This document shows positions 3,067 to 36,039 of a stretch of DNA of 64,000 nucleotides, in pieces. The stretch lies in contig OZ076410.1 of assembly GCA_964187785.1 (NCBI GenBank), positions 45,694,001 to 45,758,000 of the forward strand, in the 5' to 3' direction. The notes under the pieces were generated by a model. It searched no databases and was not told where the DNA came from. It was given only the letters and a program-made list of their open reading frames with translations. Positions within the stretch are counted from its first letter, which is position 1. Every line of letters begins with the position of its first letter. This DNA comes from Amphiscolops sp. MND2022 (lineage: Eukaryota). Made by a program: the position numbers and the translations under genes.

Positions 3067-4959
3067 GCTGATTTGGGCCAGCGAGAAAGTAATTTTGCAA
3101 GCTGAAATCTTTTGCAGCACTATGATACTTTTGGAATATGATTTAATCTTCGAAAAACTGATTTTTTTGTTCTTCCAGTAGGGACAAATGGTTTCTGAGT
3201 CTCAGGCGTACTTTTTAGGGCTTTTTCGGGCACTGAGAAATTGGTAACAGCTTGAAAAAAGTTTGCTCTGTATGTCTTAAAATGTTAGTTTTACGAAACT
3301 TGAGCCGGGCGCTTCATTTTTGCACATAACGTCACCAATAATACAAACTTGAAAAACTTTGAATATTTCTTTCGAATAAGTTCTTGGGGGTCAATTGGAT
3401 TACCTTTTCAACAAGAACCTACATATGTTGTTCTAAAACATCTACTGGAAATAAAGTTCACTGGCAATCGTTGTTAAATTTCAACACAATTCTAACCCAC
3501 AAAATAAGTTGAGATTTTCACGTAAAGTTGTAACCAAACCTCTAACACTTTTTTATGTTTGGGTATATCTGAGGTTTTTTTCCTGAAAGGAACACTACAA
3601 AAACATTTTCCTTTGGAAGGCGTAGAAAAAATTTAGTATATTTACAGTGTATATTGAACTATTGACAGATAAATTTTAAGAAAAATGATACTTTTTCCGA
3701 ATAGGTTTTTTTTGAGACATTTTGCAATAAAACTTGTCCGATATCTTCTTGGAACACTATCGGTAGGTACAAGTTTTTATACTGAGCCTATGAAGTTCCT
3801 AGTTACAGAAAGTTTTCAGGAAGAGAGCAAAATTCGGATTATGTTGTCAAAAACTGAGAGAAATTTGTTGCCAATTTCGGTTCAAAATTCATTTTATTGG
3901 AAGTGCTATTTTTCATGGATTGAACAAAAAATGCAATTTATTTGCCAAAAAACGTGCTTTTTCCCACGTTTTTGATTTTGGGGTGTCTTTGAGGCCCAAT
4001 CTAACAAAAAATTGCGGTTCTACTTTCAAAAACGCCTATTGGAGACTCGTATTTGTCGCTGAGTTTGTGAAACTGTTTTATGCAAAGAAATTGCTGAAAA
4101 CTTGTACAAAAAACTGGAATAAAGTCCAAAACGTCAAAATTCTTCCTTTTTTGCCTATTTTAGGTTAATCTTAAGGTCATTCTTAGTTATCAAGTAATTT
4201 GAAAACTGCAAATTTTTCTTTAAAACTGTGCTGAGGAGCTAGGTAATTTATCTGGAGCTTTTTGATAGTTCAAATTTCTTTGAGGTTAACTTAAAAATCA
4301 CTGAAAATGACAAAAATGACAAACAGAAGTCTGCAATTACGTCTTCAAAAAAGCCTACTGGATAGCGATTTCAATCGTTATGGAAGTTTTTGAACATTCA
4401 GAGTCTGAAACTATTCAAAAGTTTCACAAAACTTGCATAGAATCGTGAAAGTATTGAATATTTTCCAGTTGAGTTTTTCAACTCATTTGGAGCCATTCTG
4501 AAGTGTCGTTGAAGCAAAACGGTGCAACCTTCTCTTCAAAAAGGCGTACTGCTGTGCTGCTTTAAAAAGTTGTATATTTTAGTTAGTGGTCTTGTATCTA
4601 GATGGTACAGGTTTAAATTTTCAGACAAGACTACTTAGATCGATGCTAGCTAGCTGACTCTAATAAAGCTTGGAGGTCTGAAAGGAGAAAAAGGAAAGTC
4701 GACTAAATACTGAATATTAGTTTTCTCTCAGACGGAGTAGAAATTTACAGTCATTCAATATTAAATAAATGTACATTCTAGAACATTCTATAAACATCTA
4801 AAAACTATTGGTTATTAATATAGGTCAGTACATCCATCCCGGTTTTTAGATAAAATAAAAATTTTCACATCACATGACTAAAATAAGTTTGGAAAAATTT
4901 TTTGTATAAATGTTTTTAGCGTTTCAGCTAGTTCAAATTTTTATTTTGATGGATGATTG

Positions 4960-5919: not shown

Positions 5920-6489
5920 TCAGAATGCGATGTAAGTATATGTTTTGTATGAAGAATTTTGGTCGAGTATCGCTTCAGGAGTGTCTTTTTGAAGTTCATC
6001 ATCGGTAGAATCATTGTCATCCGATGGCCAGTAGGATATTAATTTTTCTTTTTCTAATAGAGTACGTGTTCTATTAGATATTTTTTTGGGGAAGGATTTT
6101 GGTCGGATAGTAGTATAATCCGTTTGAGTTGTAGCATCACATTTGTGAATGAAGGTATCGGGATGATTATGCAATATAAGGTATTGCTGAAAATTTATTT
6201 TGTTTATTTGGAATATTTGGAACATATTGAAGAGAATCATTTTCGTTAGTTGTGGATCTGCCTTTTTTCTTGTGTAATCTGTGTATATAACGCTGATATA
6301 TGTTTTTTCAGAATGAGAGATCGAAGGCGAGTTGAAGCAATCGGGAATTCTACAGAAGTATTTGAAGAAGTCATTGTGATAGAAGAGTTGAAATGGATAT
6401 TTTTTGGAAATTTTTCGATGTGGAAAGGCGTTGAGGCTGCGATTGGAAGGAAGAGGAAGGGGTGAAGAAAAAAGTTTGGAGATATTCAC
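5920..6489 (-). CDS. Element B accessory ORF, unknown function
   Basis: 189-aa ORF with an acidic C-terminus (SDDNDSTDDE), flanked by AT-rich spacers. Confidence 0.55.
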   Translation of the reverse strand: MNISKLFSSPLPLPSNRSLNAFPHRKISKKYPFQLFYHNDFFKYFCRIPDCFNSPSISHSEKTYISVIYTDYTRKKADPQLTKMILFNMFQIFQINKINFQQYLILHNHPDTFIHKCDATTQTDYTTIRPKSFPKKISNRTRTLLEKEKLISYWPSDDNDSTDDELQKDTPEAILDQNSSYKTYTYIAF

Positions 6490-6898: not shown

Positions 6899-8214
6899 TT
6901 AAGATTGTTGGAGTTTTTCAAAGGTGTAGTTGATTTCATCTAAAGATGTGCGTATGCACGAAGCTGATTGGCTAACTCTCGTCGTGTCAAATGCCATTTT
7001 TTGCAATAGGTCTCGGGCTTGTTCCAGTGTATTTACTATATCAGCAATAGAAATAAGTATATCCTTTTTGGGATTATGATATGGTTTTAAAATGTCCATT
7101 AATTGTTTGTTTTTGAATTTCTTCGGTAGGAAAAAAGCCTTCTGGTTGAGGAAAGTCATTTGTTGGTTTCTTTAAAGGTTCTTGATTTGTTCTTTTGTGT
7201 TCTTTTGTATTTCTTTTTGTAAGGATTGAAATGAGATGAGAAATAATGAATAATAATTCATTATTGGAATATCCCTTTTTTGCTATAGCGTAATAACAAG
7301 ATTTTGAGATTGTAGTTAACAAGAGGTTGGGAGGCAATGGGTTGAAGTGGAGGAAGAGGGTCTGATATACCTTTTGGTATATCGTCTTGTAATAGCGAAT
7401 CATGATTCAAAATGAGATATTCTTGTGGTACTATAATTGGTCTTTTAGGAAGGAAGAAAAGAAAACTTTGTTTCAATGGGTCGTAATTTCTTAGTTTTTC
7501 TTTCATTTTAGTGTGATCTATTAGGTAGTCTGAGATTAAAGTGAAAGGCGATGTAAATTTTGAATTGAAGAAAAGATAATTCTCGGGTTCTTTGTTTTTG
7601 AGAAATTTTTGGTACGTAATATGATGAGCTTTCTTTATTTGGTATGGCAAGAAAGTAGCATCATTCTCTTCAGTTTTGAGATCATACGGAGATGGTCTGA
7701 GGAAGTTATATTGAAGAGAGAAAATTTTCACTTTGTTATTTAACCACCAATCATATGGGGTAATTAGTTCTGAGGCAATTGGAGTATGATAATCGTTTTT
7801 GAATTCTCTGATGATAAATTTGTTTTTTGTTGGAATCATATATAAAGAAGTTAAATGAGATTGGAATGTGAATTGTCTTGAAGATAAAATGGGAATTGAA
7901 TCACAATCTCGATCTTCATCTTGTTTTGATGGAATTATGAAAGGAGGACAAGCGCCAGATTCCAAAAAAGGTTCATCGGCGGTTATATCTGGGTATTTTC
8001 GTTTTTGAGATTTCGCGTTTATATGATCAATTTGTTCAACTGGAATAGTTTCCATGGGTTCTTGAATTTGTGAAGATGATTCATTAACTTCGTTAACATT
8101 TTGTTGAATGGTTATATTCAAAGGGGATGCAAGCAATTCAGAGGGACTAGAGGTAAATACGTCAATTTCAGGCAAGGATTCCATTGTTTTAAATTGCGTG
8201 ATTTTGTAGCGCAA
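6899..8214 (-). pseudogene. Element B accessory ORF(s) immediately downstream of env, unknown function
   Basis: 317-aa ORF 8214-7261 plus overlapping frames 7403-7074 and 7159-6899, probably one or two frameshifted genes. The N-terminus is acidic and disordered. Confidence 0.65.
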
Positions 8215-8643
8215 AACTAATAATTTTACTTAACGTATGAAGTTTGAACACATGAAAAAGTTAATATTTTAAGTATTATTTATTCATTCGTTTAAAGGTT
8301 CGTTTGTAAAAATAGAGTTAAAACACTTACAGTATTTGAATACTTGTTTGCCAGTTGTGAGTTCAAAACATCAACAATCACAGTGGCATCTGTTCCCGGA
8401 ATAGAGACTTCTGTAATTTCGCGGTTTAGAGGGAGCGAAGAATCTTTCCAAGTAGAGAGTGATGTTCCAAGTGACGTTGTTCGGGTTGAATTGAGGTGGG
8501 CAACTGTCCAAGTGAGAAGTTGTGGGTAGAATGAAAGTAAATTTGTGAGGTTATTTGTTGTCGATTTTGTGAACTTTTTTAGGCTTGATTTGTTTTTTTT
8601 TGGTTATTATCCTTTCCTTTTGGTTATTATCTTTTCTTTCTTG

Positions 8644-11181
8644 TTAGGAGGAATTAAATTTTATGAAAACTTTTGCGGGGCTTTCCGGTGAAGCTATTAC
8701 ATTTTGTACTAAGGCGTCATAATCCTGGGAATTTTGAGGTGTTTTACAATCATTAATATTGTTTGGGTGTGTCTTTTTTGGTGATTTAAGGGTTGAATTT
8801 TTACATGTATATTTAGGAGGTAAATAAGGGGAGTCATTATCAGAGCATCTTCTTATTTGATTGTGTGTTTCTTTTTCGGATAACAGGATATGATCATTTT
8901 CACTTGTGGTAATTTTGTGTTTAGTATATATCCGTTTACGTTTTCCTGTATTATTTAAATCGGTAACCATTTCCGATGTGACTATATTAAAGAATCCATG
9001 GGCTCTTGAACTCAAAATGGAAATGTTGCTTTAGAGATTATATTTTATACTAATTGTCCTGTAGAGTCTGAGTAGGAAAGTTAAAACTTCTCTCATAAAA
9101 AGAAAGGTAGAGAAGTAAATTCCACATTGTGTTAAAATATAACATGGGTATCCGAATAAATAACGAACGCTTGACTAAACCAGTTAGGGTTGAAGAGTGG
9201 TAAAAGGTTTAACAAATGATCATGTAATCCAATCCTTAAATGATTATAAGGATTTGATCCTGTGTGGGAGTGTTTTTCATTATGCAATGTAATGAAATCG
9301 TAACTTAATGATTTCCCAATAATTGGAGAGTTGTACCTGAGAGTTTTGCGAATAATACTCCTATTCAGAATTGATCTAATTCTGCATTTGAGTAAATACC
9401 GGCATTTTGAGCTGTGAATGTTTTGGGTGTTATTGTTGTTTTAATTTGAGTGGGTTTAAACATTTGTGGTGCTTCCCTTTTTAGCGGGTCTGGTGTTAAC
9501 ACATAAAATCTCCGTCATCTGTATCTGGGTCTAATTCAAAAATATTTTGTGGGTTATTTCCACATTCTATTGGTTTGGCATAATTAAAAGTTTGTCTCGT
9601 TATGGGGTCTACATACATGATAGTTTCTCTATAGTGTATGGGAATTCTATCAAAGCATTTGTCTGCTTTGTATAGTGGTGATATGAAATGAGGGCAATCA
9701 TACAGCCATGCAATAGATCCTTCGACATAAAAGAAGTTACTGCGATTTCCAGTTAGAAGGAAACCGGCTAATTGAGGTTTCTTAACTGACATAGCTAAGA
9801 TTGTTAACAGTTGTGTTCTTTCTAGTTCACATACTGTGTGGAGATTGTTTAGTTCTTGTACTGTCATTGATTTAAATACGTGATTTATTGTGAAGTCAAT
9901 TTTTGTGTTAATATGAGCATCGTTATCTATGGTAGCGAAACTATTTGATATATTTAATGCAGGGAAAAAAACTTTTGATTAGAATTATCAAATTGTATTT
10001 TTCCACTAAAGTTTTGGTCTATTATTGAATTTGGTTTTGGCTGTCCAGTATTCATATCAAAACCATCTAAATAAGTAACAAAAACGTCGTCGTATTGTGT
10101 GGAATACAGTGGTTCTAGTTTTCCACAAAAGGTGTGTGCAATGGGATATATTTCAAAGCGAGAAAGACTTGGATTGTTTACAGTTGATTGTGGTGTTTTG
10201 ACATTGGGGTATTTTGTTCCTTTGATTCCTTCGGTCTGAAGCTGTTTTGTGATATTTGAGGAATTGATAAGGTTATCTGTTTCTATCCAATAACGGTCTT
10301 TAATTCTTGTCATTCTTCCAATGAATTCCTGTAATCGAAATACGAGGCAAAATTTTTCATCAAACCATGTTAATATGTATGGAGTTCTTGTGGTGGGTTT
10401 ACAAAATCCATCTGAATGATAACATGGTAATATCCATCATGAATCACTTGATTCTTTTTAACATCATAGGTTTTTTCAGCATTAGTCATTCTGAGATTCC
10501 AGCTTTGTCGGGTTGTTAAATGTTCTCTGTCGCTTCTACATCTTGAATAAAGATTTTGTGTGAAATTAACTATCCAGTCTTGGTATTGTTCATCAAGTAC
10601 GAATGTTCCAATATGCCAAGCAGTTAATTTGTTGACTCTAAATGGTTGTTGAACTCGTTCATTTCTATTTTCATGATCACTGTCGTCAGAAAATGAGAAT
10701 TGTATGTTGTAATTGTTTAATTCTTAACTATCGGTTGCGGTTAAAAATCTTATCATGTTTTTACATTCAATAGGGTCAAGTACTTTTGTAAGTTCTAATG
10801 TATTTTGTCGCCATTGTAAACGATCATATCGTCTACTGGATGAAAATATTTGGGAACACCAAACTTTTCTGTTTTTATATATGCTTCACATTTGAAGGCT
10901 TTGATACTTTTTGCTTTTGCTCTAACGTATACTGTTGCTTGAGTTTTCGTATGTTGTATGTCTGCGGGTGCTTGTTTACATGTTTCAACATTTAGTAAGC
11001 TGAATTGTCTTAAGTTGTTTTGTTTTGCACTGTCATAATGCGATACCAAAAGGTTTAATATGTTTGGGTCTTGTGGTGAAATATGGTGTTCTGGGTTTGT
11101 TGTATCAGCTTTAGGAACTGATGTCGTATTAGCTAGGTGTATTACATATACAATATATGTAATGAAAAGTATGTCTATCAT
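8644..11181 (-). pseudogene. env: Envelope glycoprotein of about 850 aa, class III fusogen-like (herpes gB / chuvirus G type)
   Basis: Joined frames show a hydrophobic signal peptide (MIDILFITYIVYVIHLA), Cys motifs PCYHSDGFCKPTTRTPYILTWFDEKFC, CELERTQLLTILAM and CFDRIPIHYRETIMYVDPITRQTFNYAKPIEC, then AGIYSNAEL, a TM segment (FGYPCYILTQCGIYFSTFLF) and a cytoplasmic tail. Confidence 0.8.
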
Positions 11182-11183
11182 AG

Positions 11184-12617
11184 TTAAAATATAGTTCTAT
11201 AATTAAGTCCTGAATATGGGTTAAAGAAGTTTATATGACCAGTTCTAATTTCTGGTAATTCTGCGTCACAAAGATAAGAGATTGAAGTGACTAAGAATGG
11301 TGAAGGAGTTGTTTTATAAGCTACTCTTGTTGAAAGAGAAAATGGATGGGGGTTTAAAGAGTTGAATGTAACTTCGACTTCAAATTTCAATTTTAATTGA
11401 GTTTCTTGTAATCTTCGTAGTTCTCTTTGTTTTCTTGAGTTTGAGAGAGAGAGAGCTATTATTTATAAATCTAATAGGGAGTACTGTGTATCGAGGATCT
11501 TCTCTAAGACTACGAATATTCGTTGAATTAACACGGATGGGATATTCGTGTGGGTATGGTGTAGGAGGTCTCGAACAATCTTCTAAAAAGTATTCAGGTA
11601 ATTGTATCGATGAATCAGATAGTATTGAACTAGGTGAATAAACTCGTGAAAAGTTTGCGGCGCTATCTGAATTAGTGTGAGGGTCTTCCGAAATGAGAGA
11701 TGCTGATTCAAAATCTGATGTGACTTGAAATGGTAATGATAATTAAGATGGTATTGTGGGATGAGATGATGAAAGCGAAGGAGTGTCTGATCTGGGTTGT
11801 GCTTGTTGTCTGACTAGTCTTGAGTTTGTACTAGAACTAGTTAAAGATGATAATTCTTGAGAAAGTCTTCGTTGTTGAGATCTAAAGTTAAAACTAAGTC
11901 TTGCTACTCGGGTACTAGCTGTCGAATCAGAGTCTTTATCTTTGTGGTATAAGTCTGTTAAAGAAGAGGTAGTGGTTGATTTTAGACGTTCTAATTTTGG
12001 ATATAATTAAGAGAATGTAAATGAACTTATATCAGATGGTGAATTAGTTGTATGTTCTGGTATAGTTTTAATTGGAGTTTGACTTGTTGATGGTATAGGA
12101 GTATTCTTTGGAATTGTTGGTTTAGGAGTTTTTCTAATTGTCTCTGTTGCGGTTGTTATTCTGTGTGAACAGGAGCTAATGTATTGGAACTGATCAGGGA
12201 TATGAAGAGTACGGGTAGTAGGAATAGGTGGAAGAGGGGGTCTATTTATGATACTTGAAGTATCTTGCACATTAGAGGTAAGTGATTCATCACACGAGTC
12301 ACTTACAGGTGAATTTGTTTCCAAAAATGGCAAATTTTGTGATTGAGTTGTTGTTGTTGTTGTTTGAGTTTGGAGTATTGGAGTATTGTTAGGCGTTGCT
12401 GTTATTCTATCGGGAGAATATGGAGCGGATGGACTAGGGTTCGAGGGTGAGCATTCCAGTATGTCTCTATCTGAATTTAGATATGCTGTATATCCAGGTA
12501 GTTTTAGGAATGAAAGGGTTGAACTAGATGATGAATTGTTTCTAACTGATGAAGGTGAAGCTATGGCTATCAATCTTGAAGTATTATATTGTAATTTGCA
12601 GTTCTTTTTTTAATCAT
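11184..12617 (-). pseudogene. ORF-X between pol and env: S/T/P-rich protein with PSAP and LYPxL late-domain motifs
   Basis: Fragments 12573-12007 and 11390-11184 plus the intervening frame, joined across internal stops and frameshifts. PSAP at 12432-12421, LYPKL at 12006-11992, and an ordered-looking C-terminus (KFEVEVTF...TGHINFFNPY). Confidence 0.65.
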
Positions 12618-12724: not shown

Positions 12725-14382
12725 TCAACAGGATTTTTGAGAAAATGAAATCAGGTCCTTTTCACCAAGGAAAAGTTGATAGTCTTTTCGTGGTTGTGGG
12801 CGGAAATCGTATCTGTCATGGGTGTGTCTTCGGGGATTAATATAATTGTCATAGTCGTGAATATTAGATTGGTTTTCTGGGTTGGTGTAACTGATTTGTT
12901 GTTTGTTTTGTTGATACGGAAATGAGGAGTATTGGCTAAATGATTCCGGTCGGAAGTCATTTGTGAATGGTTTTTCCGTTTCTTTATCGGAATTTGTTAT
13001 TTCGTCTTCAACTAATTGTTCTTCATCTGAAAAAGACACAAAAGGATTTATTGAGTCGTTTGTACTTGAGTTATTATTTTCAGTATTATTATCAGTAGAA
13101 TGTGGCTTATATTTTTGTATGAAAGGGAAAATGATTGGTTCTCTTGGGTAGTAAGGAACTAAATGGTTTCTATGTATATGAGAAGAATAACCATCTTGAT
13201 TAACAATTTCATATGTAATGTCAGAAATTCTATCAATGATTTTAAATGGTCCAATTCTGAGTGGCTTTAGTTTATCTGAAAAAAGAACATGGAGAAAATT
13301 TCTTTTTAATACAAAGGTACCGATGTCTAAGGGTCTTGGATTATTATATGTTTAATTGAAATAGGCAAATGAAATAATTTTTCTTTTTGTATTTTCATAT
13401 ACTGTGTGGTAAATTTCTATCATAGCTGTTTCCGTAGCCAGAATCCATTGTGGAATTGGTTTTGACAAGGTTTTATGGGAGAAGGGGTTTAAATTTGATT
13501 TGTCGTAGTGTGTATGAAGTGGTAAATTCTGACAAAATCGAGATGTACAGTTTCTATAAGTATCTCGTTGGAGATTGAGTTCAAAGTTGATTGGGATTCT
13601 TGGTATAGTGTGAAATACTATTTCGTATGGCAAAAGATTTAATTCAGAGAGTGGTTGTGAATTATGTGCATAAGCGTACATATGGACTTGGGTAGACCAG
13701 TTTTCTGGTGTATTATGCAAGAAAAGTCGAAGAAGGGTTCCAAGACTTTCGTTTTGATTTTCTACTAAACCATTTGTCCGTGGTGCGTAAGTTGTTCTTG
13801 GTGAATGTCTAATTCCCATTGTAGTACAAAGGTTTGCAGGTTCAGATTTAATGTATTCGTAACCTCGATCTGTAACTAAATACACGGGGGGTCCAAATTT
13901 AGTTATCCAATGATGTAGTAGAGTGTTGACAGCGTTTTGGGCATTGTTTTGTTTAACAGGTACTGTTAATACAAAGTGGCTAAAAGCGTCTACTATCACA
14001 TGAATATATGAGTTTTGATTAGATGGTGGATTTATAGGGCCTCTTGTATCCATTGATATTCGATAGTTGAAATTTAAACATTTTCTGAAAATGTTTGTAC
14101 TGTTGCAGTTTGAATTTTTTGGTTAATGTGTTTGTTTTGTTGACATTCAATACAATCATGAATGAATATCGACATCCATTCATTTAAAAATGGTATAAAA
14201 TAAAATTGATTAAAAACTTTTATGGAAATTTTAATTCCTGAATGTCCATGTGCATGGAGTTCATTGAAAGCTGCGTGAAAGAGTGTAAATGGTAGACATA
14301 TTTTGTCGTTTTGATTTGGGTTTGAATCACGTATATTAGGATAATATATATGGATGATTTTTGTTTCATGATTTATGTACAA
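12725..14382 (-). pseudogene. pol: Integrase (zinc finger, DDE core, GPY/F domain) with C-terminal extension
   Basis: HAHGH...CIEC zinc finger; MDTRGP...VIVDAFS...TDRG...NGLVE core; GPFKIIDRISDITYEI...HRNHL GPY/F motif. Confidence 0.95.
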
Positions 14383-14915
14383 TTGGTGGAAGAGTTTGTG
14401 GTAAACTGATAGGAAAGAGTTACTTGCTATTGTTGGATCTATTTGTAAAGGTCTTTTGTTAATTTGTAACCAATGATAAACTTTTTGTAGAACGGGATCG
14501 TGTTTTTGTTGTTATTTTATAGTTTCAATTGTTATTGGGGTATCGTCTGGGAGCAAGAAACAATGAAAATATTTTTTATACTTAAAGAAGGATGGATCAA
14601 AAAATGGAACTTGTTGATTGCAATAATCAGATTCAGTGGGATATTGTATAGCAAGGGTTTGTTCTTTAAATATATTTGTGTTCTGATCTTTTATATCTTG
14701 TGGTTGATTTGGTTCGTCTTCATCATTAAGAATATCAGTATCATTAAGGATAGTTGATTGTTGTAGAAGTGATTTTGCTTTATTCTTTGTGGGTCTCTTG
14801 TGTTTAGATTCAAATACATGGAACAATGGATTGAAAGGAAAATGAATCTAAAGGATTTATATGAATATCTTCTCCTTTGTTGTCTATGCTAATGGAAAAT
14901 TGATCTTCTCCATAG

Positions 14916-16697
14916 TCAGCGAGTGGCAATCATTTTTTGATTGTATTTGATTTCTTCATGTTTCACTAAATAGTGTACAGGTTTGAGTTGGTTGTCTTTG
15001 ATAATAGAGAAATTGTTTTGAGGTGGCAATTGTTTATGTCGTAGTTGATGTATTTGAAGTTGTTTTTTGGTAAAGGTTCTTGAAAGCATATCTGCTACAG
15101 TTACGTTTTTTCCAGGGATGTGAATAATTTTGAGTTTTGAAAACTTTGTGAGTTGCATTTGTGCTCTATAAAATCTTGGGCTAAGGTTTCGTGTTTTGGC
15201 AAAACAGTGTAATAAAGGTTTGTGATCTGTAAAGATGTATATTGGATGAGGAGATCCAATAAAGGGAAATTCGTATATTTGTAATGCATAGACTATTGCA
15301 AGAAGTTCTCGGTCTAATGTTGAAAGTTTTTGTTCTTGGGTGTTGAGGATTCGTGAGTTATAAGAAATAACTTTCATTTTATTTTCTTCGTTCATTTGGA
15401 ATAGGACTGCTCCTAAGCCAATTAAGGAAGCATCGACTGGTATGAAAAATGGATGTTTGGTATTGAGTATGGTTAATTCGGTGTCTGCTGTCATTGAATT
15501 TTTAACATCTAGGAACATATTTTCTAATTCAGGTGTCCATTGGAATTTTACGTGGTCGTGCAATAAGGTAGATAGCGGTTTGAGATTTGAATGAAATTTT
15601 TCAAGGAATTTGGAATAAAAGTTTACGCTTCCTAAAAACTGCATAACATCTTTCTTATCTTTTGGTGATGGGATTCTTTTAATGGCTTCAATTTTTGAAG
15701 GGATTGGTTTAATTGTGTTATTTCCTATTTCATGTCCAAGAAATTTTACTTTAAGTAACATGTAAAGTGATTTTTCAGGTGCAAGTTTGAGATTTTCTTT
15801 TGTTGCTAATTTATGGAGTTCTTTGATGAGTTCAAACAATTCTTGTTTTTCATCTACTAGTAGTAATATATCATCAATATATACTAGTGCAGAACGTTTA
15901 TCTATGAGTGATCGAAAGAAGGTTGACATCTGTTTTGTGAAAAAGTTTGGGAGCCGTTTTAAACCATAGAATCTACGGATAAAGGTTTATAATTTGTCTC
16001 CGGATGAAAATCCTGTGAGTTTGATTGTTTCTTCATCTAAAGGAGTATGCGCATATGCGTACATTAAATCAATGATTGATTTGTATTTATTGTTAGCTCT
16101 GGCTAATTGGGGGGCTAAAGGTTCAATGGGCCAAGATTCAAGTTCTTGATTAGTGTTTGAATTTAAGTGTCTTGCATCTAGAACAACTTTTATTGAGTCT
16201 CCTTTAGGAATAATAATTGCAGGGTGTAAAAATGTTGTTCCAATTGTGTGTTTTTCATCTGACGAAGAGCCAATTTGTTTTATTATATTATATTTCTCAA
16301 GTTCTGTTAAGAGTTTGTTTAATCTATATCGATAGTGAATTGGTACCTTAGAGGGTCTTTGCGTTTGCAGTTTATAACTTTCTTTAATTCTAATTCTGAA
16401 AGGAGTAGAAATTTTTCCTACGTCATTTTTGTGTTTAGCGTAACAATGTTGGTTGTTTATAAGAATACTGCATAGGTTTACATATACAGTATTAGTTAAA
16501 TCTGAGTATTCGAAGTTTTTTATAAATTGATGATTTTCTGCAGTATATGGTAGGGAAGGAAAATCTTTTCTGATTTTATCTGAAGGTCGAAGATTTCCTG
16601 TGACAGAAGGTATAGGTAATTGAAGGGCTTTGTCATTGATTTCTATTTCACTAATTTCTAATAAGGGTTGTGGAATTACTCGAGTACATAAATTCAT
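14916..16697 (-). pseudogene. pol: Reverse transcriptase and gypsy-type RNase H
   Basis: VVLDARHLN, IIDLMYAY, VYIDDILL, KFLGH, FLGSVNFY; RNase H motifs VDASLIGLG, RELLAIV, TDHKPL, ADMLSR. Confidence 0.95.
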
Positions 16698-17249
16698 ATC
16701 TGTATAATCATTTTGTTTAATTGGAATAGTAGTATCAGGATGATAGGTATGTATTACTGAATGAATGAGTGAGTTTACGTCTTGAACTCTATAATGAGGA
16801 GGTGTTGTTTGAATGATAGGAATCTCTATGTATCCAATAATTCCTCGTGGTAGTGTACCTGGATGAGATGTGAAGTTTTGAATTACTGTTGAGCATGAGT
16901 CTTTATTTTCTAATAAGATGAAAAAAATAAGATGTCTAAGAAATGAAAAAAATCTTTAAATTTTTGTAAGAAGTATGTATATGGAATTGATGGGTAGAAT
17001 TTAGTATTATCTTCTAGTTCAAAGTGTAAGTTGAAATAATTTTTGATTGGGAAATGTATAGTCTTTCTTGACCTCGGTTTAAAGTGAATTGGTTCTTTAC
17101 ATTTATTGGTATAAATGTATGAAATATATGGGTAATCTTTTTCTGTGAATGTCGAAATGTGTGTTTTTGTTGGAAGTTTTGGATGTTGTTCTTTTTAGGT
17201 CATAATGTTTTGTTGAAAGTCTTAATTTTGAATTTTTTTTCTTGACGAA

Positions 17250-17560
17250 AGGTGCTCCAAGAATATAGTACTTAATGTTTGCTACTGCAAATTCAATATT
17301 GAAAGATCGTTTTTGATGATTTACTTCGGTACATGTCATCGAAACATAATTTACTATTGGTACTTCAGTTTGGTTGGCAACTGTAAGAGTTTTTGCTCGT
17401 TTATTTTCAATGTCCCTTGGAACATTAAGGTTTAATTATTTTGCAATTACATGAAATGTTGATAGGTTTAAAACTGAAATAGAATCTCCAGTATCTAAGA
17501 GAAATAGAATTTCTAATTTTGAAGGTAATATGTTGTCTTTTCTTTCAGAAGCATGTATAT
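17250..17560 (-). pseudogene. pol: Retropepsin aspartic protease
   Basis: LFLLDTG (DTG at 17495-17487) and YYILGAPF, in frame with the end of gag. Confidence 0.85.
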
Positions 17561-17599
17561 ATAGTGGATAAAACCAACTATACGGAGTAATTGTGTTTG

Positions 17600-19407
17600 C
17601 AATTTCAGTGATTTGACATGTATGAACTTCAAATTTAGTACTATCTTTGTCATTAGTAGATTTAACATCTACTTGATTGATTCTGTTTTGTTGTCTGTTC
17701 TGTGAAGGTGTTCTAGATTGTGATCTGTAATCTCTTGGTTTGGATGGAAATCTATATGGGTAATTATATCGTCTAAAGGAGTTTCCTTGTGATTGAGAGC
17801 GAGATCTATATCTTGATCGAGAATTATATCTGTAATTAGTGTTGTTCCCATATGGTGATCTATATGGGGATCTGGATGGAGTTCTTCTTTGATAATGGTT
17901 GTCATATCTAGATCTAGTTGAGTTTGGACTTTGGGATCTATTGTAGTATCTTTGTCGAGAATTAGATCGATAGTTGTTTTCTGAATAATCTCTACTGTTA
18001 CTTCGGTATCTATCATTATTGCTATATCTATCACTATGGTAGGAGTAGTTTTGACTATATCTATTACGGTCATTATCTCTAGAAGAATAATCAGTTTTAT
18101 TTTCAGTTCGGTTTTCTTGAGAGTTGGGTTTACTACGTAAGTGTTGTACAAAATTTTGTTGGGAGTTCTTGGTCTCGGATTTCTATTTTTTTGGTATTCT
18201 TCGTCACGTTGTTTTTGATAACAATTTGAAACACCGTGATTGTTTTTACGACAATAAGAGCAATATTTCTTGTAAGCTGGTTTACTTTTGTTATTTGGGT
18301 CTCCAGGCTGAGTAACCATTATATGGTCAGGTTCTAATTCCTTGTCATTATTGTCATTCTCATTGGATATTTTGTTTATCTCTAAGGCTGGATCATTGGT
18401 TCTTTTTTTTCGTTAGCAATATCTTCAGAGTCAACATGTCGAACAAGTGTGTGAGATGGTATAGATGGTTCAAGTAACGTTGATACGTGTTTAACTTGTC
18501 TTTTGTGTGCAAAATCCTTTAACTTTTTAGGTAGTCCTTTTGTAAAAATTTCATTGTTTTTAAGGCTTATAGTGGCTGCATTTTCATTCCACCATCCTTT
18601 TTTAACTAACTGTTGTACTCGGAGAGCGAAATGGCGTACTGTTTCATTATCTTTTTTCATGAGTGACATAGCTTCTACTTGTGCGTAATAAGCTGTTTTT
18701 TGAGATAGAAATTGTTTTTCAAACAATTGTACAAATGAATTCCATTGTTGTTTATATGATATATGGAGGTTAGTGTACCAATCAAGGGCTGTTCCTATTA
18801 AAGAACAATATATAAAAATATGTATATGCCATGCGTCTACTATGCCATGATCTGTATTTTACAGGAATATTCTGAGGTTCTTCAACTATGGCAAAGGTTA
18901 ATCTTGCTACAACTTTGTGTATTCTTCTGGGGTGTAAGAGTGATCTAAACCGTCGAAAGGTTTCATAGGTTCTGGTAATGAAGCTGAAGTATTTATGAAT
19001 GTATCTTGTTGTATTGGTATATACTGAAGTGAAGGAACTACAGATTGTGCCATGTTTACAGTTGGTGAAATTTGAGTGGGGTTGTGAGTCGTATGTTGAT
19101 TCATTTGATATACGGGGTCGATTAATATATACGAAAGTGGAGGATTTTGGGATCGTCTTTGAGAAGATTGTACAATGTAAGAATATGGTATCCTTTGATT
19201 TCGTAAAGGAGAATTTGTTTCTGCGGAATTTGTTGATAGCGGATGTGCGTATGGGTAATGTGTCTCGGCACTTCTTTGCACACTTTTTACAGTGAATAGA
19301 GACGTGGAGTAGGTTTCCGAAGACTCCTGGCCTCCTTGAGGTTTTACTCGTTCCGGTGAGGACTTAAGGAAAAAGCGTTTTATAACGTCTGAAATTTTCC
19401 GAAACAC
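17600..19407 (-). pseudogene. gag: Gag of element B (capsid, single CCHC knuckle, RS/RY-rich tail)
   Basis: KPFDGLDHSYTPEEY, ALDWY...WNSFVQLFEKQF, KKDNETVRHFALRVQQLV, CSYCRKNNHGVSNC, then about 150 aa rich in R/S/Y. Confidence 0.9.
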
Positions 19408-21590: not shown

Positions 21591-24401
21591 TCAACAGCAA
21601 TAGCACTTCAAAAACCTTCTACAATCCGATTTATCATAGCCATATTTAAGGTAGTTTCGGAAAATATTTTTCAGTTTAGGCTTAAATGAGGTCGTGTCAA
21701 AGAAGTCAATCTCGAATTTCGATGATACGAAATTAGCTAGATTAACAACTCTGTTTATGAAAAAGCTGTCAGTGGACTTCAGTCTTGTTTTCTTTTTAAA
21801 GAGAAGTTTTCGTGATGAAGATCGGGTGTCGTAATGGCGGAGAGATTCTTTGTAGAGCAGTCCTGAACATATCGGAGAATCATTCACAATACATTGATGT
21901 AGGAATAGGAGGTCGTTCAACTGAAACAGCAGAGAAAAGGGAAGCAAATTTAGGGCTAATAACCGATCCTTATAATCATCTATAAGTCCAAACCAACGAA
22001 TAACTTTATTTTGAAAGACTTCTAATTTCGATAAATCAGTCTTGTTGGGAAACCATAGGACTGATCCATAGGTGATTATTGGTAGGATATAAAGTTTGTA
22101 AACTTGTGATTTTACATTAGCCGGTAAGGTAGTCGGTAAGGACCGCTTTAACATCATGAATCGTGAAAAAGCTTTTCTAATACGAACATCGATGTGGGCT
22201 GACCATTTCAAATCAGACGTAAAATTGATACCCAAATCTTTAATAGGGACCGTAGAAAACTCAATATCTTTAGAATCAAAGACCAATACACGTCTATCAG
22301 AAATTTTATAGCGATGAAGAGTAAACCATAGTAGTTCAGTTTTCGTGTTATTGAATTCCATTTTATTTGCTTTCGCCCAGTTATAAATCCTTATAAGATC
22401 ATTCTGGAGTTCAATGGGATCAGCATTTGAGATTTTCGAATCGTCTGCAAAGAGTAACATTATTGAGTCGACACAAACACCAGGCAAATCATTAATGAAG
22501 ATTAAAAATAATAAAGGTCCAATAACCGAGCCTTGGGGGACACCACTTTTGATTGGAAGGGCAGTTGAGAGACAGTTGTCAATTTTAACTCGTTGTTCAC
22601 GATCTTCGAGATAACTTTTCAAGAGTTTGAGTATATTGCCACCAATCCCAAAACTGGCAACCTTTTTCAATAAAATCTCATGATCAACACGATCAAACGC
22701 TTTGCTGAAATCAAGATAAACTGTGAAAACTTCATCTCCTCTGTCGAGGTTGTTGTATATGTAATCTAAGTGAATTAACAATTGGGATTGTATCGATTTG
22801 CTTTTCATGAACCCATGCTGTAAATGGGATATCTTTTTTGAGCAGTGGGGATAAAGTTTTTTAAAAAGGAGCCGTTCAAAACAAATTGAAAGACGGGATA
22901 AGGATGCTACAGGTCTGTAATTTTCGATTACCGTTTTACATTTCTTTTTGTGCATTGGTCTAATGAAAGTTGTTTTCCAGTTTGCAGGGAAAATTGATGT
23001 ACTGAGAATGTGTTCTGCCAATTTAAGAAAATGAATGCTAAATTCGTTGGAAATCTGTCGCAGTAGAAACCCAGAAAGACCATCCGGTCCAGTTCCATTC
23101 GTGCAACAGTTTAGAACTGAGTACACTTCATCTAGAGTGATTTCAACATCATTCAATTCTAATTCATCGAAGTTGTTGAAATTTTTGATAGTTGAACATT
23201 CTTGATATTGGCAAAAGAAAAAGTCGTTGAAAGCATTGGCAATATCAGGTTTACCAGAGAAATTCTTTTTCTCCCATGTCATTTTTGAGGGATAGGACGA
23301 AGAATTTTTGAAAGATCTGACTAGATTATAACAGTCATGCATTCTCGTGTTGTTACTAACAAAATGGTTAACAAAACAATGGATATCCAACTCAATAGAC
23401 TCCAAGAGGTCTTTTTTCACTGACATAAATTTTGATATGTTGTAATTTTTCGTTGAAGACGCAAGGGTTTTCAATTGATTATAAAGGTGAATCGAATGCG
23501 AAGTGTAATAGAACGGTAAACTCAAACGCTTTTGACGTTTCTTTCTCATGTGTTTCTTCAGAATTTCGTCGAAATTATCGAACCAATTCTGGCTATAAGT
23601 AGATTCGGAATTTGGCTGTACCATTGAAAATATATTGTCAGATAGGTCAAGCTTTATGTTTTCCACCGCATCTGGAGTAAGGGAGAAGGTTGAGTTGGAT
23701 TGAGGCATTTCCCACTTTTTAAGATGAAAAGTTTCTAAAATAATAGTTATTCCGAAGTGGTCAGACTGGAAATTTTTTCCCGACACAGAGATTGATTGAA
23801 TGTCAAAGTTTGCAAAACAAAGGTCTAGAATATTGCCTCCGTCATGGGTCGTTTGATGAATTAATTGATCAAAGCCATTGTGAATGAAGAAATTGAAAAC
23901 TTCGGAGTACTCCTCGGGAATTTGAGCGGGAAAGAGTGCCCAATTAATCGAAGGGATATTGAAATCGCCTAACACTAAGATATTTTTCTCAACCGACCAA
24001 AAAGCTTTGCAAATAACCGATTTAATAAAATTGAGGAGATGTTTATCCATTATCCGGTATTTGCTGGTCAGGGGAGGATTATAAATAACTATCACCAAGC
24101 AGTTCTGGAAAATAACAGCGCAACCGAAGTCGAAATTTGTTTTGACCGGAGATGTATCCAAAGTATTCGAACATATCACCACACCACCATGTGAACCATC
24201 CTTCCGATCCGCTCGATTCAGGACTGTTGGGATGTCATTAGGAAATATAATCGATTCAACATTTTCGTCAAACCAGGTTTCGCATAACAGCATCAAATCA
24301 TATGAACCAGTCAGATAAAGCTTTTGTAAATCAATACATTTTTGGAACGATAAGAGACCTTGCACATTCAAGTAGAGAATTTTAGAAACTTTTTCTTCCA
24401 A
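21591..24401 (-). CDS. LINE ORF2: apurinic endonuclease plus reverse transcriptase
   Basis: LNVQGL, LCETW, YNPP, GDFN, LDL, SDH; DFSKAFD, GVPQGSVIGP, FADD. The ORF starts at TTG, not ATG. Confidence 0.97.
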   Translation of the reverse strand: MEEKVSKILYLNVQGLLSFQKCIDLQKLYLTGSYDLMLLCETWFDENVESIIFPNDIPTVLNRADRKDGSHGGVVICSNTLDTSPVKTNFDFGCAVIFQNCLVIVIYNPPLTSKYRIMDKHLLNFIKSVICKAFWSVEKNILVLGDFNIPSINWALFPAQIPEEYSEVFNFFIHNGFDQLIHQTTHDGGNILDLCFANFDIQSISVSGKNFQSDHFGITIILETFHLKKWEMPQSNSTFSLTPDAVENIKLDLSDNIFSMVQPNSESTYSQNWFDNFDEILKKHMRKKRQKRLSLPFYYTSHSIHLYNQLKTLASSTKNYNISKFMSVKKDLLESIELDIHCFVNHFVSNNTRMHDCYNLVRSFKNSSSYPSKMTWEKKNFSGKPDIANAFNDFFFCQYQECSTIKNFNNFDELELNDVEITLDEVYSVLNCCTNGTGPDGLSGFLLRQISNEFSIHFLKLAEHILSTSIFPANWKTTFIRPMHKKKCKTVIENYRPVASLSRLSICFERLLFKKLYPHCSKKISHLQHGFMKSKSIQSQLLIHLDYIYNNLDRGDEVFTVYLDFSKAFDRVDHEILLKKVASFGIGGNILKLLKSYLEDREQRVKIDNCLSTALPIKSGVPQGSVIGPLLFLIFINDLPGVCVDSIMLLFADDSKISNADPIELQNDLIRIYNWAKANKMEFNNTKTELLWFTLHRYKISDRRVLVFDSKDIEFSTVPIKDLGINFTSDLKWSAHIDVRIRKAFSRFMMLKRSLPTTLPANVKSQVYKLYILPIITYGSVLWFPNKTDLSKLEVFQNKVIRWFGLIDDYKDRLLALNLLPFSLLFQLNDLLFLHQCIVNDSPICSGLLYKESLRHYDTRSSSRKLLFKKKTRLKSTDSFFINRVVNLANFVSSKFEIDFFDTTSFKPKLKNIFRNYLKYGYDKSDCRRFLKCYCC

Positions 24402-24410
24402 CTTTGTGAG

Positions 24411-28856: not shown

Positions 28857-31800
28857 TCATGACAGCCCTCCCTCGTGGACAACAGCGCTAATCGAAGACT
28901 CCATGGCTGGTTGACAGCGAGTCGACCTACAGCCCCTTAGACAGAGGACGCAGCTGCGGAGTAGGGCGAAGCTTATTTTGGTTCGGATATAGCTAATGGC
29001 TTCAGAGTAACTTTCGGTGCTTTTTTCATTGACCTTTGACGCAAGTCTGGTTATGACTTTCGTGGCTGATGGTCCAGCTCCGCCAGTGCAGGCAAATACG
29101 AGCGGGTTGAAAGTGCTCTTTTCAACGTTGATTATTCGCGACTCATATTTGAGCTTCTTCTGTGTTTCGTGGAACTTGTATGCCTCGTTGATATCTTTCG
29201 GGCATGATTTGGCTAGTGGGTTAAAAATTTTTACGTCGAAGAAAGTTCGGCAAAAACGTGAATCCCAGAGTCCATTGGCTTTAATGTCTAGTCTTGCTTC
29301 GTCTTCAGTTGTCGTGGTTTTATGAACGAAGGACTCGCCTTCTAACGGCTGAAGCTTCGGCTCGATTTCGACATCAAAACAGACATCCTTCATGATGGCG
29401 GCGAAAGTGTCTCGAATTTCGTCATGTCGCATTTGTGTGTAACCACCTTTGTTGCATTGGAGGGAATGCGACAGGCTGAAGGTGTCTCCACATGGACATA
29501 TTGCCGGTATTTTCAGTGGTTCCCAGCCATAGCGCAGGGCTAAACCGTCGCGGAACTCAGTTTTTGTCAGGTCGAAGTGATAACGCTTCAGTGGCAGCGT
29601 GTTCAGCCAACTCGAGGCGCCTTTTTCAGCGGCAAGATCTAAAGCGTATCGTTGGTTTTCGTGAAGTCTGTCCTTCAAAAAAGCCATTTTTTCCTTGATT
29701 TTTGAAGATTTCTCTTTTCGAATCTGTTTTATCACAACAGTCTGTTGCAGTTCCGCATCATCATTTTCTAAACATGACGACATTTCTCTGGACCAGTTGA
29801 TTTCCTGCTGTCGGTCTTCCGGTAGACTTATGTTTAGACCTCCGTCCCTTACGGGTAGAGAAAACAGGAGGCGGTCGTCTTCGGAAACTTCTTGCTTGCC
29901 TGTCAAAGCCGGTATCAATTTGTTCTTAATAAGTTTTTCGGTTTCTTGAAGATTTTCTAAGATTGCAGGTGTAGTACGGGATAAGAATGTTAACTTGTTC
30001 TGAAGTCCTTTAGCGAAACAGTGGTACGCGTTTTGTGGCGATGTTTTAGCGTGTTTTGATAGCTTTTCGACAACTCCAATGTACTCGTTTTGTTTCTGAC
30101 GTTTGTACTCATTGCACGATGATTCTGAACCGATTACCGAGCCGAGGACACGGTGTCCTTTGACAATCTCAATTTCGCTGCTGTTAAACAGTTTTTCAGC
30201 TTGATTGATATTCTCAGTTTTGGTAATGATGTTGCATTTAGTTAGTGTGTATCCGAACGCCGAGCCGTGTTGTTTCAACTTATCATGTACGACTTTCAGG
30301 TCGTCCAGGCTACCGGCAACATTACCGTCGTCGGCATACCATTTTTGAGTGACTTTTGGATTTTGCACAAGTTCAATCAATGGCAAAATAGCTATCCCGT
30401 ACATTGCCATGGCAAGAGGGTCTCCCTGGGTTGTGCCCTCTTGGGATTGCAGTGTTTTTCCATTGACGAATAAACTAGTTGGTGACTTGTAAGAATTTTT
30501 TAGTGCCGTGACGATTGATGGGCACATTTTTTCAATGTTTCGCAGCGCTAGATCTCGATTCAGACTGTTAAAAGCGTTCTTTGCGTCAATGAGCAGAATG
30601 CCTTCAACTTCTGCTTTCTCGAACTCGTTCCGGAGACTGTGTATGGCGTGTTCGATTCCACATTTTTGACCGAGACATAGTTGCTGGTTTGTGCCGAGGA
30701 GCTTCAGGTCATTCTGTATGCATCGGAGTATGCTTCGACCTATGATACGTCTCAGAACTTCTCCAACACCGATGGGTCTTACGCCTGGGTTTTTGTCTAG
30801 TGGAATCAAGCGACAGGCGTTGTAAGGCTCTAGGAATTCACTATCGATTTCTTCAGTGGCGATTCTTATCGCGATGCGCGCGACTGTGCGGCATAGTGAT
30901 GTCGACGATTGGTTGAAATTGGAAAGCCAGCGCCGCCATTCGTTGGTGTCCACGCCGGAGGGTCCGTGGCTTCCGTGCGTCTTCATCGCGGCATTACGAA
31001 CAATCCTGCCTTGGATTTTGTCGAAAATAACAGGGTGGTAGGGTGTGACGTTTGACGGTTTTTCTACTATATAACGGTCATCGCAACGACTTGCGGGGGG
31101 ATGTTTCTCTTTCAAGATGTCGAGGACAGATTTGTTATCGATTTTCTCTGTCAGTGAGAGAACGCCGCCTTTCTCACAGTCGTTGATACATCTCAGAGCA
31201 TTCGAAATTTTTCCCGCGGACATGTGTGCATCAAATTCTCTGAGTTCATCCTTCTTTCTACTCGACTTCGGTTTTGTTGACCTTTTTTGTAATGCTTCTG
31301 CCTCGTGAAATAGTTCTTCGATTTCACCTGTCAGCCACATTCTAAGTCTCCTTGTGGTAACTTGGTTTCGAGACGTGTCGGGCTCACTGCTGGTTCTCGC
31401 TAATATTAGGTGGGGGAAAAGCATTGCTGCATAGAGAGCTATGTTTGCTTTGCTACTGTTCTCTGCAAGTGGTGTCATAAGGCAGTTCATTGTTTCTATA
31501 AACTTGTGTCCTGTTTTGTTTTTGGGTAAAGTGATGAATTGCGGTTTCCAGTGGACTACTTGGTTGTAAAAATAACGAATTTGGGAGACTTTCTCTGGAG
31601 TGATGTTTGTCCAGAAGCTATCAGCAGTTGGCTCGCCATCTAGTTGACTTCTGAGGAGTTGTTGATCCCCCGGAGTGATCCCAATATCGAGCTCCGGTTC
31701 GTTGGCTTGGCTCTGTATGTTTACGACAGATGGTTCAGCTGTGGGCGATGCTTCGGGTCCAGAGCAGCGAACGCAAACAAAATCTTTCGACCAGTTTTTT

Positions 31801-31913: not shown

Positions 31914-31936
31914 TTCGGAGGGAGAGCTGTCGTCAA

Positions 31937-36025: not shown

Positions 36026-36039
36026 ATTAAATTAAGTAC

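What the first reader, a model, noticed from the sequence alone, without database searches (positions are those of the whole stretch)
11184..12617. ORF-X carries two canonical ESCRT late domains and abuts env as TAA-CT-ATG
Seen: PSAP(Y) at 12432-12418 and LYPKL at 12006-11992 in the same frame (one in-frame TAA lies just before LYPKL), inside a disordered S/T/P-rich region. An ordered C-terminal domain follows, and its stop lies 2 nt before the env ATG. Known: P(T/S)AP binds TSG101 and LYPxL binds ALIX during enveloped-virus budding. Inference: ORF-X is a matrix-like or budding protein encoded outside gag, possibly co-captured with the glycoprotein from an RNA virus and translationally coupled to env.
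Basis: partly seen in the sequence, partly recalled or inferred. Interest (0 to 1): 0.75.

Follow-up and report, generated by a model that had tools for sequence, protein, structure and literature searches.

The report
CUG-started budding gene beside retrotransposon envelope
A giant virus-like jumping gene in this animal genome carries, just in front of its envelope gene, an extra conserved gene with no normal start codon; it likely begins at a CUG, likely shares one message with the envelope, and likely recruits the cell's membrane-pinching machinery to bud particles, a job that retroviruses give to their capsid protein.

Summary
Both motifs and the TAA-CT-ATG junction are in the window as described, but this copy is decayed (two stops and a frameshift in ORF-X). 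Young genomic copies show that ORF-X is a real gene under purifying selection (dN/dS 0.03-0.27) between gag-pol and a class III env in ~18-kb Ty3/gypsy elements. Across families only 37-47% identical, LYPxL is kept in all five examined and PSAP in three of four. Gag has neither motif; the env tail adds PPxY. New here: ORF-X is Met-free, keeps an A-nn-CTG-G codon at the homologous place in all three families with DNA, and is depleted of AUG in every frame. This points to CUG (plus AUU in the window's family) initiation and leaky scanning to env, not fixed stop-start coupling, since the junction varies from a 59-nt overlap to a 29-nt gap. A foamy-virus-like YxLR chromatin motif is also conserved. 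The C-terminal domain folds confidently but matches no known matrix protein. No viral homologue was found and sister env families lack ORF-X, so RNA-virus co-capture is unsupported. Binding and translation are untested. The scan earlier noted late motifs in an env tail in another genome, but not this gene.

The parts
11184..12574 (-). ORF-X, decayed copy (stops at 12009-12007 and 11745-11743, frameshift near 11455-11444); 437-446 codons from the CTG in young family A and D copies, about 39 more from the ATT in family A
12572..12574 (-). ATT in A-nn-ATT-G context, 39 codons upstream of the CTG and in frame: candidate AUU start of an extended isoform (family A); overlaps a possible 3' splice site GAYAG
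   Evidence: 48 of 57 family A copies had the site, all 48 A-nn-ATT-G; purifying selection downstream of it
12457..12459 (-). CTG in A-nn-CTG-G context: inferred main start codon of ORF-X
12418..12432 (-). PSAP(Y), TSG101-type late motif, about 10 residues after the CTG
   Evidence: conserved in families A, B, C, absent in D
11992..12006 (-). LYPKL, ALIX-type LYPxL late motif
   Evidence: LYPKL, LYPPL or LYPRL in families A-E
11881..11892 (-). Degenerate remnant (FNFR) of the conserved YxLR motif, which matches the foamy-virus Gag chromatin-binding spacing
   Evidence: PMC9040877 passages
11187..11595 (-). Ordered C-terminal domain of about 137 aa (hairpin, two helices, five-strand sheet); no known fold match
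8644..11181 (-). env, class III fusion glycoprotein (Pfam PF24664), broken in this copy; PPxY (LPPKY) in the cytoplasmic tail at 8820-8809
12725..19185 (-). gag-pol (gag, CCHC, PR, RT, RH, IN), broken and 5'-truncated in this copy
6902..8184 (-). ORF4 (about 435 aa in young copies), no Pfam match, conserved in families A, B, D
5920..6342 (-). ORF5 (about 158 aa from its Met in young copies), no Pfam match; only its aligned part is given
4688..4832 (-). Matching part of the 3' LTR
12615..12617 (-). ATG at the finding's upper bound: out of frame with ORF-X, opens a 15-codon frame

Best explanation
ORF-X is a conserved, Met-free gene between pol and env in a clade of ~18-kb Ty3/gypsy elements; it likely starts at a CUG on a message shared with env, and its product likely acts as a separate budding adaptor that recruits ALIX (and TSG101 in most families). 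Shown: open frame under purifying selection, conserved A-nn-CTG-G, AUG depletion in all frames, conserved LYPxL, PSAP and YxLR, a Gag without PTAP, LYPxL or Gly2, PPxY in env tails, host ALIX V-domain and UEV genes. Inferred: a minority of scanning ribosomes start at the weak CUG (or the upstream AUU in family A) and make ORF-X, while the rest scan 1.2-1.4 kb to the env AUG, which fixes the X:Env ratio (about 0.75 for non-AUG start plus leaky scanning). X would link capsid, Env tail and ESCRT at the budding site (about 0.6), and its YxLR would tether the incoming core to nucleosomes, as MLV p12 and foamy Gag do (about 0.4). How the subgenomic message arises (splice or internal promoter) is not resolved.
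For: Gene: many young copies have open 488-490-codon frames; dN/dS 0.03-0.11 in the C-terminal domain and 0.09-0.27 in the disordered part in 9 of 9 within-family pairs. Start: MAFFT aligned I-L-D across A, B and C at protein level; the Leu is CTG with A at -3 and G at +4 in 81 of 89 rows (some loci overlap). It is the only CTG among 44 (A) and 41 (B) Leu codons of ORF-X, against 2 of 195 in gag-pol. Family D, found afterwards, has the same ATC-CTG-GAT. None of the other 128 Leu columns shared by A, B, D1 and D2 has CTG in all four. In-frame stops lie 7-10 codons upstream in B and several D2 copies, 5-8-nt indels lie just upstream in D, and in B the first AG after that stop falls inside PSAP. 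No Met in 66 of 71 uninterrupted copies. Scanning: out-of-frame ATG observed/expected under codon-order shuffling 1/7.2, 2/6.8, 1/8.2, 3/7.0, 1/7.5, 0/6.1 (p from <0.003 to 0.048) in A1, A1b, A2, B, D1, D2, with no depletion in env, three gag regions or ORF4; the usual remaining ATGs open 1-16-codon frames. Motifs: YPxL in 17 of 21 (A), 36 of 37 (B), 13 of 13 (D); PSAP in 20 of 21, 37 of 37, 0 of 13; YxLR in 19 of 21, 37 of 37, 13 of 13; family C has SPSAP, LYPKL and RYHLRPRTY. Gag regions examined in A, B and D lack P[ST]AP and LYPxL. PPxY in 6 of 6 env tails. Host ALIX V-domain (PF13949) and UEV (PF05743) exons are present.
Against: No RNA, ribosome or binding data. PSAP is missing from all 13 family D copies. 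Other short motifs (HIPxP, PTxxKT, RQHAQ, TSG, PPTPN) are as well conserved as the late motifs, so their conservation is not unique. Under synonymous shuffling the ATG deficit is not significant in B (p 0.095) or D1 (p 0.34), and the control word GTA is also low in D2. Met is rare in Gag's own disordered part too (1 in 260). In family A about 39 codons upstream of the CTG are also under selection (dN/dS 0.07-0.51) and an AG lies just after the ATT in 46 of 48 copies, so a spliced fusion cannot be excluded there. ORF-X has no TM segment or Gly2 (maximum 19-residue hydropathy 0.6-0.9). A PPxY occurs on the gag side in one A copy and one B copy. No hairpin downstream of the CUG (z -1.2 to +1.8). 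Counted copies are the best-scoring hits and so biased to intact ones.
Confidence: 0.55

Rival explanations
1. ORF-X is a non-AUG-initiated accessory protein that works mainly in the nucleus or on the incoming core (chromatin tether or antagonist of host silencing through YxLR); the ALIX-type motif serves sorting or turnover rather than budding.
For: YxLR is kept in families A-E, doubled in C, and C's YHLRPRTY matches PFV Gag Y537, L539, R540, R542, Y544; PSAP is lost in D; no membrane-targeting signal.
Against: LYPxL is as conserved as YxLR; translation appears tied to env, as expected for a particle component; pol tails of B, D and one F copy carry their own YxLR, which makes a second tether less necessary; YxLR has a 2-4% chance rate per sequence.
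Confidence: 0.22
2. ORF-X is a second exon spliced to an upstream AUG exon (for example the gag start); env has its own message.
For: Family A keeps ATTGAYAG with the AG in 46 of 48 copies while the residue over it changes between R and S; spliced env messages with donors near the gag start occur in Tor elements (PMC4402516 passages).
Against: In B an in-frame stop lies 8 codons before the CTG with no AG until inside PSAP; in D the first downstream YAG is 99-142 nt past the CTG although those codons are constrained; a fusion does not explain the conserved CTG context or the AUG deficit; no shared GT donor was seen in the five 5' regions scanned.
Confidence: 0.1
3. One reading: a matrix (M) gene captured with the glycoprotein from a negative-strand RNA virus and coupled to env by termination-reinitiation at TAA-CT-ATG.
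For: Gene order X then G, with N-terminal late motifs before a folded domain, resembles rhabdovirus M (recalled); env is PF24664 Monjiviricetes_fusion; most junctions are short.
Against: None of the 150 listed cluster hits (of 238) carries a name, and the long ones read look like this clade; no match in viral contigs; 13 of 13 loci from two sister env families lack an ORF-X homologue (best E 0.17); junction spacing varies, with an overlap in B; PMC13524379 argues such env genes have co-diverged with pol since the Pre-Cambrian.
Confidence: 0.08
4. The late-type motifs are chance products of a Pro/Ser-rich linker, and the function of X lies only in its C-terminal domain.
For: PSAP has a 2-7% chance rate and is absent in D.
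Against: LYPxL (chance about 1%) is retained in five families at 37-47% identity amid heavy indels.
Confidence: 0.05

Closest known systems
HSV/gB-type env-carrying Ty3/gypsy elements ('ancient errantiviruses', Chary and Hayashi, PMC13524379)
   Same: LTR element with gag, PR-RT-RH-IN pol and a class III env; many young copies
   Different: A 410-490-codon ORF sits between pol and env (gap about 1.6 kb), two more ORFs follow env, and the element is ~18 kb. That survey allowed at most 1000 nt between POL and ENV and 10 kb in all (passage), so it would have filtered these out.
Rice tungro bacilliform virus ORFs I-III (Caulimoviridae; PMC5902531)
   Same: Non-AUG start for the first ORF, long ORF cleared of AUG, leaky scanning to a downstream ORF, short internal uORFs tolerated; a pyrimidine tract before the start as in family D
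   Different: Plant pararetrovirus pregenomic RNA reached by shunting, and the downstream ORF is the polyprotein; here an animal LTR element, the downstream ORF is env, and the mechanism is inferred, not shown
Foamy virus Gag (L domain plus chromatin-binding sequence Y537-x-L539-R540; PMC9040877, PMC6042332) and MLV MA-p12
   Same: Late motifs and a YxLR arginine-anchor motif in one disordered region; Gag without an obvious myristoylation signal
   Different: There the motifs are inside Gag; here they lie on a separate gene tied to env. No sequence homology found.
Rhabdovirus M and filovirus VP40 matrix proteins (recalled)
   Same: Gene upstream of the glycoprotein (rhabdoviruses); N-terminal late motifs, then a folded domain
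   Different: No sequence or fold match found; the disordered part is about 300 aa; non-AUG start
HIV-1 vpu/env bicistronic mRNA and MLV CUG-initiated glyco-Gag (recalled; the latter seen only as a reference title in PMC12789967)
   Same: Accessory ORF before env read by leaky scanning; CUG initiation in a retroelement
   Different: Vpu uses a weak AUG and is a small membrane protein; glyco-Gag is an extension of Gag

Membership tests
env-carrying Ty3/gypsy (Metaviridae) | LTRs with target-site duplication | tested here: met
   237-273-nt LTR pairs 96-100% identical in 4 of 4 young copies; TG...CA ends and a 4-nt GACC duplication in the one copy read
env-carrying Ty3/gypsy (Metaviridae) | gag, then PR-RT-RH-IN order | tested here: met
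   Pfam order Retrotrans_gag, RVT_1, RT_RNaseH, Integrase_H2C2, rve; protease motif by pattern
env-carrying Ty3/gypsy (Metaviridae) | class III (gB-type) envelope glycoprotein | tested here: met
   PF24664, E 3.4e-25, over cut-off; signal peptide and TM judged by eye only
env-carrying Ty3/gypsy (Metaviridae) | placement in the RT phylogeny of known clades | not tested
   no reference RT set was at hand
viral late-domain (ESCRT-recruiting) protein | LYPxL or P[ST]AP in a disordered region, conserved | tested here: met
   LYPxL in families A-E, PSAP in A-C; residues 1-290 mostly pLDDT under 50
viral late-domain (ESCRT-recruiting) protein | host encodes ALIX V domain and TSG101 UEV | tested here: met
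   (exon-level matches over cut-off; binding-pocket residues not checked)
viral late-domain (ESCRT-recruiting) protein | motif-dependent binding and particle release | not testable with these tools
   needs experiment
viral matrix proteins (rhabdovirus/paramyxovirus M, VP40, retroviral MA) | known matrix fold | tested here: inconclusive
   confident model (pLDDT 90.5); no matrix protein among listed rows; best VIA Z 3.2, rmsd 3.1 over 40 residues
viral matrix proteins (rhabdovirus/paramyxovirus M, VP40, retroviral MA) | membrane-binding signal | tested here: inconclusive
   no Gly2 or TM segment; C-terminal domain only mildly basic; peripheral binding not assessed
viral matrix proteins (rhabdovirus/paramyxovirus M, VP40, retroviral MA) | self-oligomerisation | not tested
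non-AUG start with leaky scanning (RTBV type) | near-cognate codon in strong context at the start of the conserved frame | tested here: met
non-AUG start with leaky scanning (RTBV type) | upstream ORF cleared of AUG in all frames | tested here: met
   (6 of 6 under codon-order shuffling, 4 of 6 under synonymous shuffling at p < 0.05)
non-AUG start with leaky scanning (RTBV type) | both ORFs translated from one mRNA | not testable with these tools
   no RNA holder listed
foamy-type chromatin-binding sequence | Y-x-L-R arginine anchor | tested here: met
   against residues named in PMC9040877
foamy-type chromatin-binding sequence | binds the H2A-H2B acidic patch | not testable with these tools
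   needs experiment

The most novel reading that the evidence does not exclude
These elements solved envelopment independently of retroviruses: instead of adding a matrix and late domains to Gag, they evolved a free-standing matrix-like protein with a new fold, made from a CUG on the env message at a fixed ratio to Env, that carries ESCRT-I and ALIX motifs plus a nucleosome anchor, while the Env tail supplies the NEDD4 motif.
Probability: 0.35. Interest if true: 0.88.

Novelty: new variant of a known kind. Interest (0 to 1): 0.72.

Why it matters
How LTR retrotransposons that gained an envelope also gained a way to bud is an open question: PMC7828637 (passage) notes that env-less Gag has only CA and NC and that a membrane or Env-interaction function is very likely needed. 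This clade offers a testable alternative answer: a separate gene translated together with env. [quoted passage not shown] The C-terminal domain is a confidently predicted structure without a recognised match.

Tried and rejected
RNA evidence: no RNA holder listed; the single run of unknown kind gave only scattered contigs and no informative joint. Fold searches for the C-terminal domain found nothing significant: Foldseek PDB best E 0.53, viral best E 0.046 with TM 0.18, VIA best Z 3.2 among 48,161 chains; this shows neither a new fold nor absence of a matrix fold. PDB sequence search: 0 hits. Pfam: none for ORF-X, ORF4 or ORF5. A full-length model added no ordered region. Metagenome and viral contig scans found no relative. 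Family C (P0093) and the P0182 and P0295 groups were not found in this assembly with those queries, so their start codons could not be read. The two family E copies read are too decayed to show a start. The automatic alignment misplaced family C's LYPKL; one search aligned it with the others. No hairpin downstream of the CUG. TAA-CT-ATG as a fixed coupling signal was rejected; the stop's last A also supplies the -3 purine for the env ATG. Literature: nine full-text searches listed nothing whose title or abstract start describes this architecture, and one search returned no paper; subscription journals are not covered. The host group is not established: my impression that it is an acoel worm is recalled and untested; acoel terms were absent from the main text and seven supplementary files of PMC13524379.

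Full report
Observation. On the minus strand PSAPY (12432-12418) and LYPKL (12006-11992) are in one frame with a TAA at 12009-12007, and TAA-CT-ATG joins the C-terminal domain to env. The copy is decayed: a second stop at 11745-11743 and a frameshift near 11455-11444 put the C-terminal domain in another frame, and the ATG at 12617 is out of frame. The element runs from about 19185 (5'-truncated gag) to a 3' LTR match at 4832-4688.

The element. A DNA search of the own genome gave 1459 candidates, 40 scored at 85-100% identity; a protein search gave 5329 candidates, 150 scored, many in open 488-490-codon frames. Young copies are about 18.3 kb with LTR pairs 96-100% identical in 4 of 4 compared. 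They hold a 1.9-kb leader, one gag-pol frame of about 2650 aa (gag, CCHC, PR, RT, RH, IN), ORF-X, env (856 aa, PF24664, E 3.4e-25), ORF4 and ORF5. So this is an env-carrying Ty3/gypsy element with an extra gene between pol and env.

ORF-X is a real gene with diverged relatives. Searches gave family B (418-codon frames), family C (proteins only), families D1 and D2 and fragments of E and others (238 clusters at 50% identity, 150 listed, none named). Identities between A, B and D are 37-47% for ORF-X, 52-60% for env and 59-65% for pol. In 9 of 9 within-family pairs dN/dS is 0.03-0.11 in the C-terminal domain and 0.09-0.27 in the disordered part. Residues 1-290 are mostly predicted disordered; only about 300-437 are ordered.

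Motifs. Among distinct uninterrupted copies, YPxL occurs in 17 of 21 (A), 36 of 37 (B) and 13 of 13 (D), and PSAP within 25 residues of the start in 20 of 21, 37 of 37 and 0 of 13. Family C has SPSAP and LYPKL; E has LYPRL. Chance rates per shuffled sequence are 0.02-0.07 and 0.006-0.014. These copies were the best-scoring hits and are biased to intact ones. PSAP, YPXnL and PPxY are standard L-domain motifs (PMC12789967 passages); their TSG101, ALIX and NEDD4 partners are established knowledge. The gag regions examined in A, B and D have no P[ST]AP or LYPxL and no Gly2, although a PPxY occurs in one A and one B copy. Six of six env tails carry PPxY (lead from finding e1-8608656). The host encodes ALIX V-domain and UEV exons. 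Against over-reading: HIPxP, PTxxKT, RQHAQ, TSG and PPTPN are equally conserved. One further conserved motif, YxLR (19 of 21, 37 of 37, 13 of 13), matches the foamy-virus Gag nucleosome anchor Y537-x-L539-R540, and family C reads YHLRPRTY, also matching R542 and Y544 (passages of PMC6042332 and PMC9040877). The window's copy has lost it (FNFR).

Start codon. ORF-X has no Met in 66 of 71 uninterrupted copies. A protein alignment placed I-L-D at the same place in A, B and C. The Leu is CTG with A at -3 and G at +4 in 81 of 89 rows, some from overlapping loci. It is the only CTG among 44 and 41 Leu codons of ORF-X in A and B; gag-pol uses it 2 times in 195. Family D, found later, has ATC-CTG-GAT at the same place, an independent confirmation. 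None of the other 128 Leu columns shared by A, B, D1 and D2 has CTG throughout. The distance to the nearest upstream in-frame stop varies from 7 to 85 codons, frame-breaking indels lie just upstream in D, and in B no AG lies between that stop and PSAP. In family A a further 39 codons upstream are constrained (dN/dS 0.07-0.51) and begin at A-nn-ATT-G in all 48 of the 57 copies where the site was found. This is either an AUU-started extension or a splice acceptor, since an AG follows in 46 of 48.

Link to env. Out-of-frame ATG is depleted in ORF-X of all six representatives under codon-order shuffling (0-3 observed, 6-8 expected) and in four of six under synonymous shuffling; env, three gag regions and ORF4 are not depleted; one control word was also low in D2. 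The usual remaining ATGs open 1-16-codon frames, and in B the third is the env start itself, overlapping the end of ORF-X by 59 nt. Elsewhere the gap from stop to env ATG is 1, 2, 3, 7, 8 or 29 nt or more. This is the pattern of leaky scanning after a weak start, as shown for RTBV, where about 10% of ribosomes start at an AUU and the rest scan 900 AUG-free nucleotides (PMC5902531 passages). It does not fit a fixed stop-start signal. The message may come from splicing or an internal promoter; both occur in Tor elements (PMC4402516 passages). No RNA data were available.

Matrix and origin. The 137-residue C-terminal domain folds confidently (pLDDT 90.5, pTM 0.76, 46 sequences), but no search gave a significant match, so matrix membership is inconclusive. 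Two sister env families in the same genome (13 loci) have no ORF-X homologue; in one, pol abuts env directly. No relative was found in viral contigs. Co-capture from an RNA virus is therefore unsupported; origin within this clade after env acquisition is the simpler reading, though loss in the sisters is possible.

Mechanism and verdict. Shown: gene, constraint, start context, AUG deficit, motif distribution. Inferred: CUG or AUU initiation with leaky scanning to env (about 0.75), ESCRT recruitment for budding (about 0.6), chromatin tethering after entry (about 0.4). All parts have precedents, but my searches found no description of this combination. [quoted passage not shown] Papers seen: PMC13524379 (abstract, first parts of sections 5 and 6, passages, a term search of seven supplements); PMC5902531, PMC7828637, PMC6042332, PMC9040877, PMC12789967 and PMC4402516 (passages only). 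Rhabdovirus M, VP40, MLV p12 late motifs and HIV vpu/env are recalled. Verdict: new variant of a known kind, interest 0.72.

Noticed in passing
window 6902-8184 and 5920-6342 (-); L061:5942-7252 and 7649-8251: Two more ORFs after env (ORF4 about 435-550 aa, 29-41% identical between families A, B and D; ORF5 about 158 aa) with no Pfam match and their own AUGs.
   Followed up: partly
L087:6638-8500: Gag has a roughly 500-600-aa N-terminal extension before the capsid domain, with an apparently ordered first ~270 aa shared by families A, B and D and no Pfam match; it could itself be a matrix-like or Env-binding domain. The window's copy lacks it.
   Followed up: no
L200:3250-4170, L203, L205, L207 (env family G): Arrays of ~100-nt imperfect tandem repeats lie directly upstream of env in this sister family.
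   Followed up: no
L200:6358-7859: Downstream of env in family G: a Met-free frame of about 200 codons overlapping a 327-aa ORF with a TRAF/MATH domain (PF22486, E 1e-11).
   Followed up: partly
L165:1-1329, L169, L180, L199 (pol C-termini): YxLR motifs also end the integrase tail in families B, D and one F copy; ORF-X's disordered part might derive from such a tail.
   Followed up: no
L165-L179, about 165 nt upstream of the CTG: A conserved CTGAACGGTTGCT block and a pyrimidine tract just before the CTG in family D, possible promoter or initiation elements.
   Followed up: no
window 21591-24410 (-), 28857-31949 (-), 34655-39738 (+): Other retroelements in the window: an endonuclease-RT LINE-like ORF of 939 codons, a 1030-codon RT frame, and a broken endonuclease-RT element.
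   Followed up: partly
window 56960-57682 (+): A 240-codon frame with a weak RhoGAP20-type PH-domain hit (E 9.5e-5, under cut-off), possibly a host exon.
   Followed up: no
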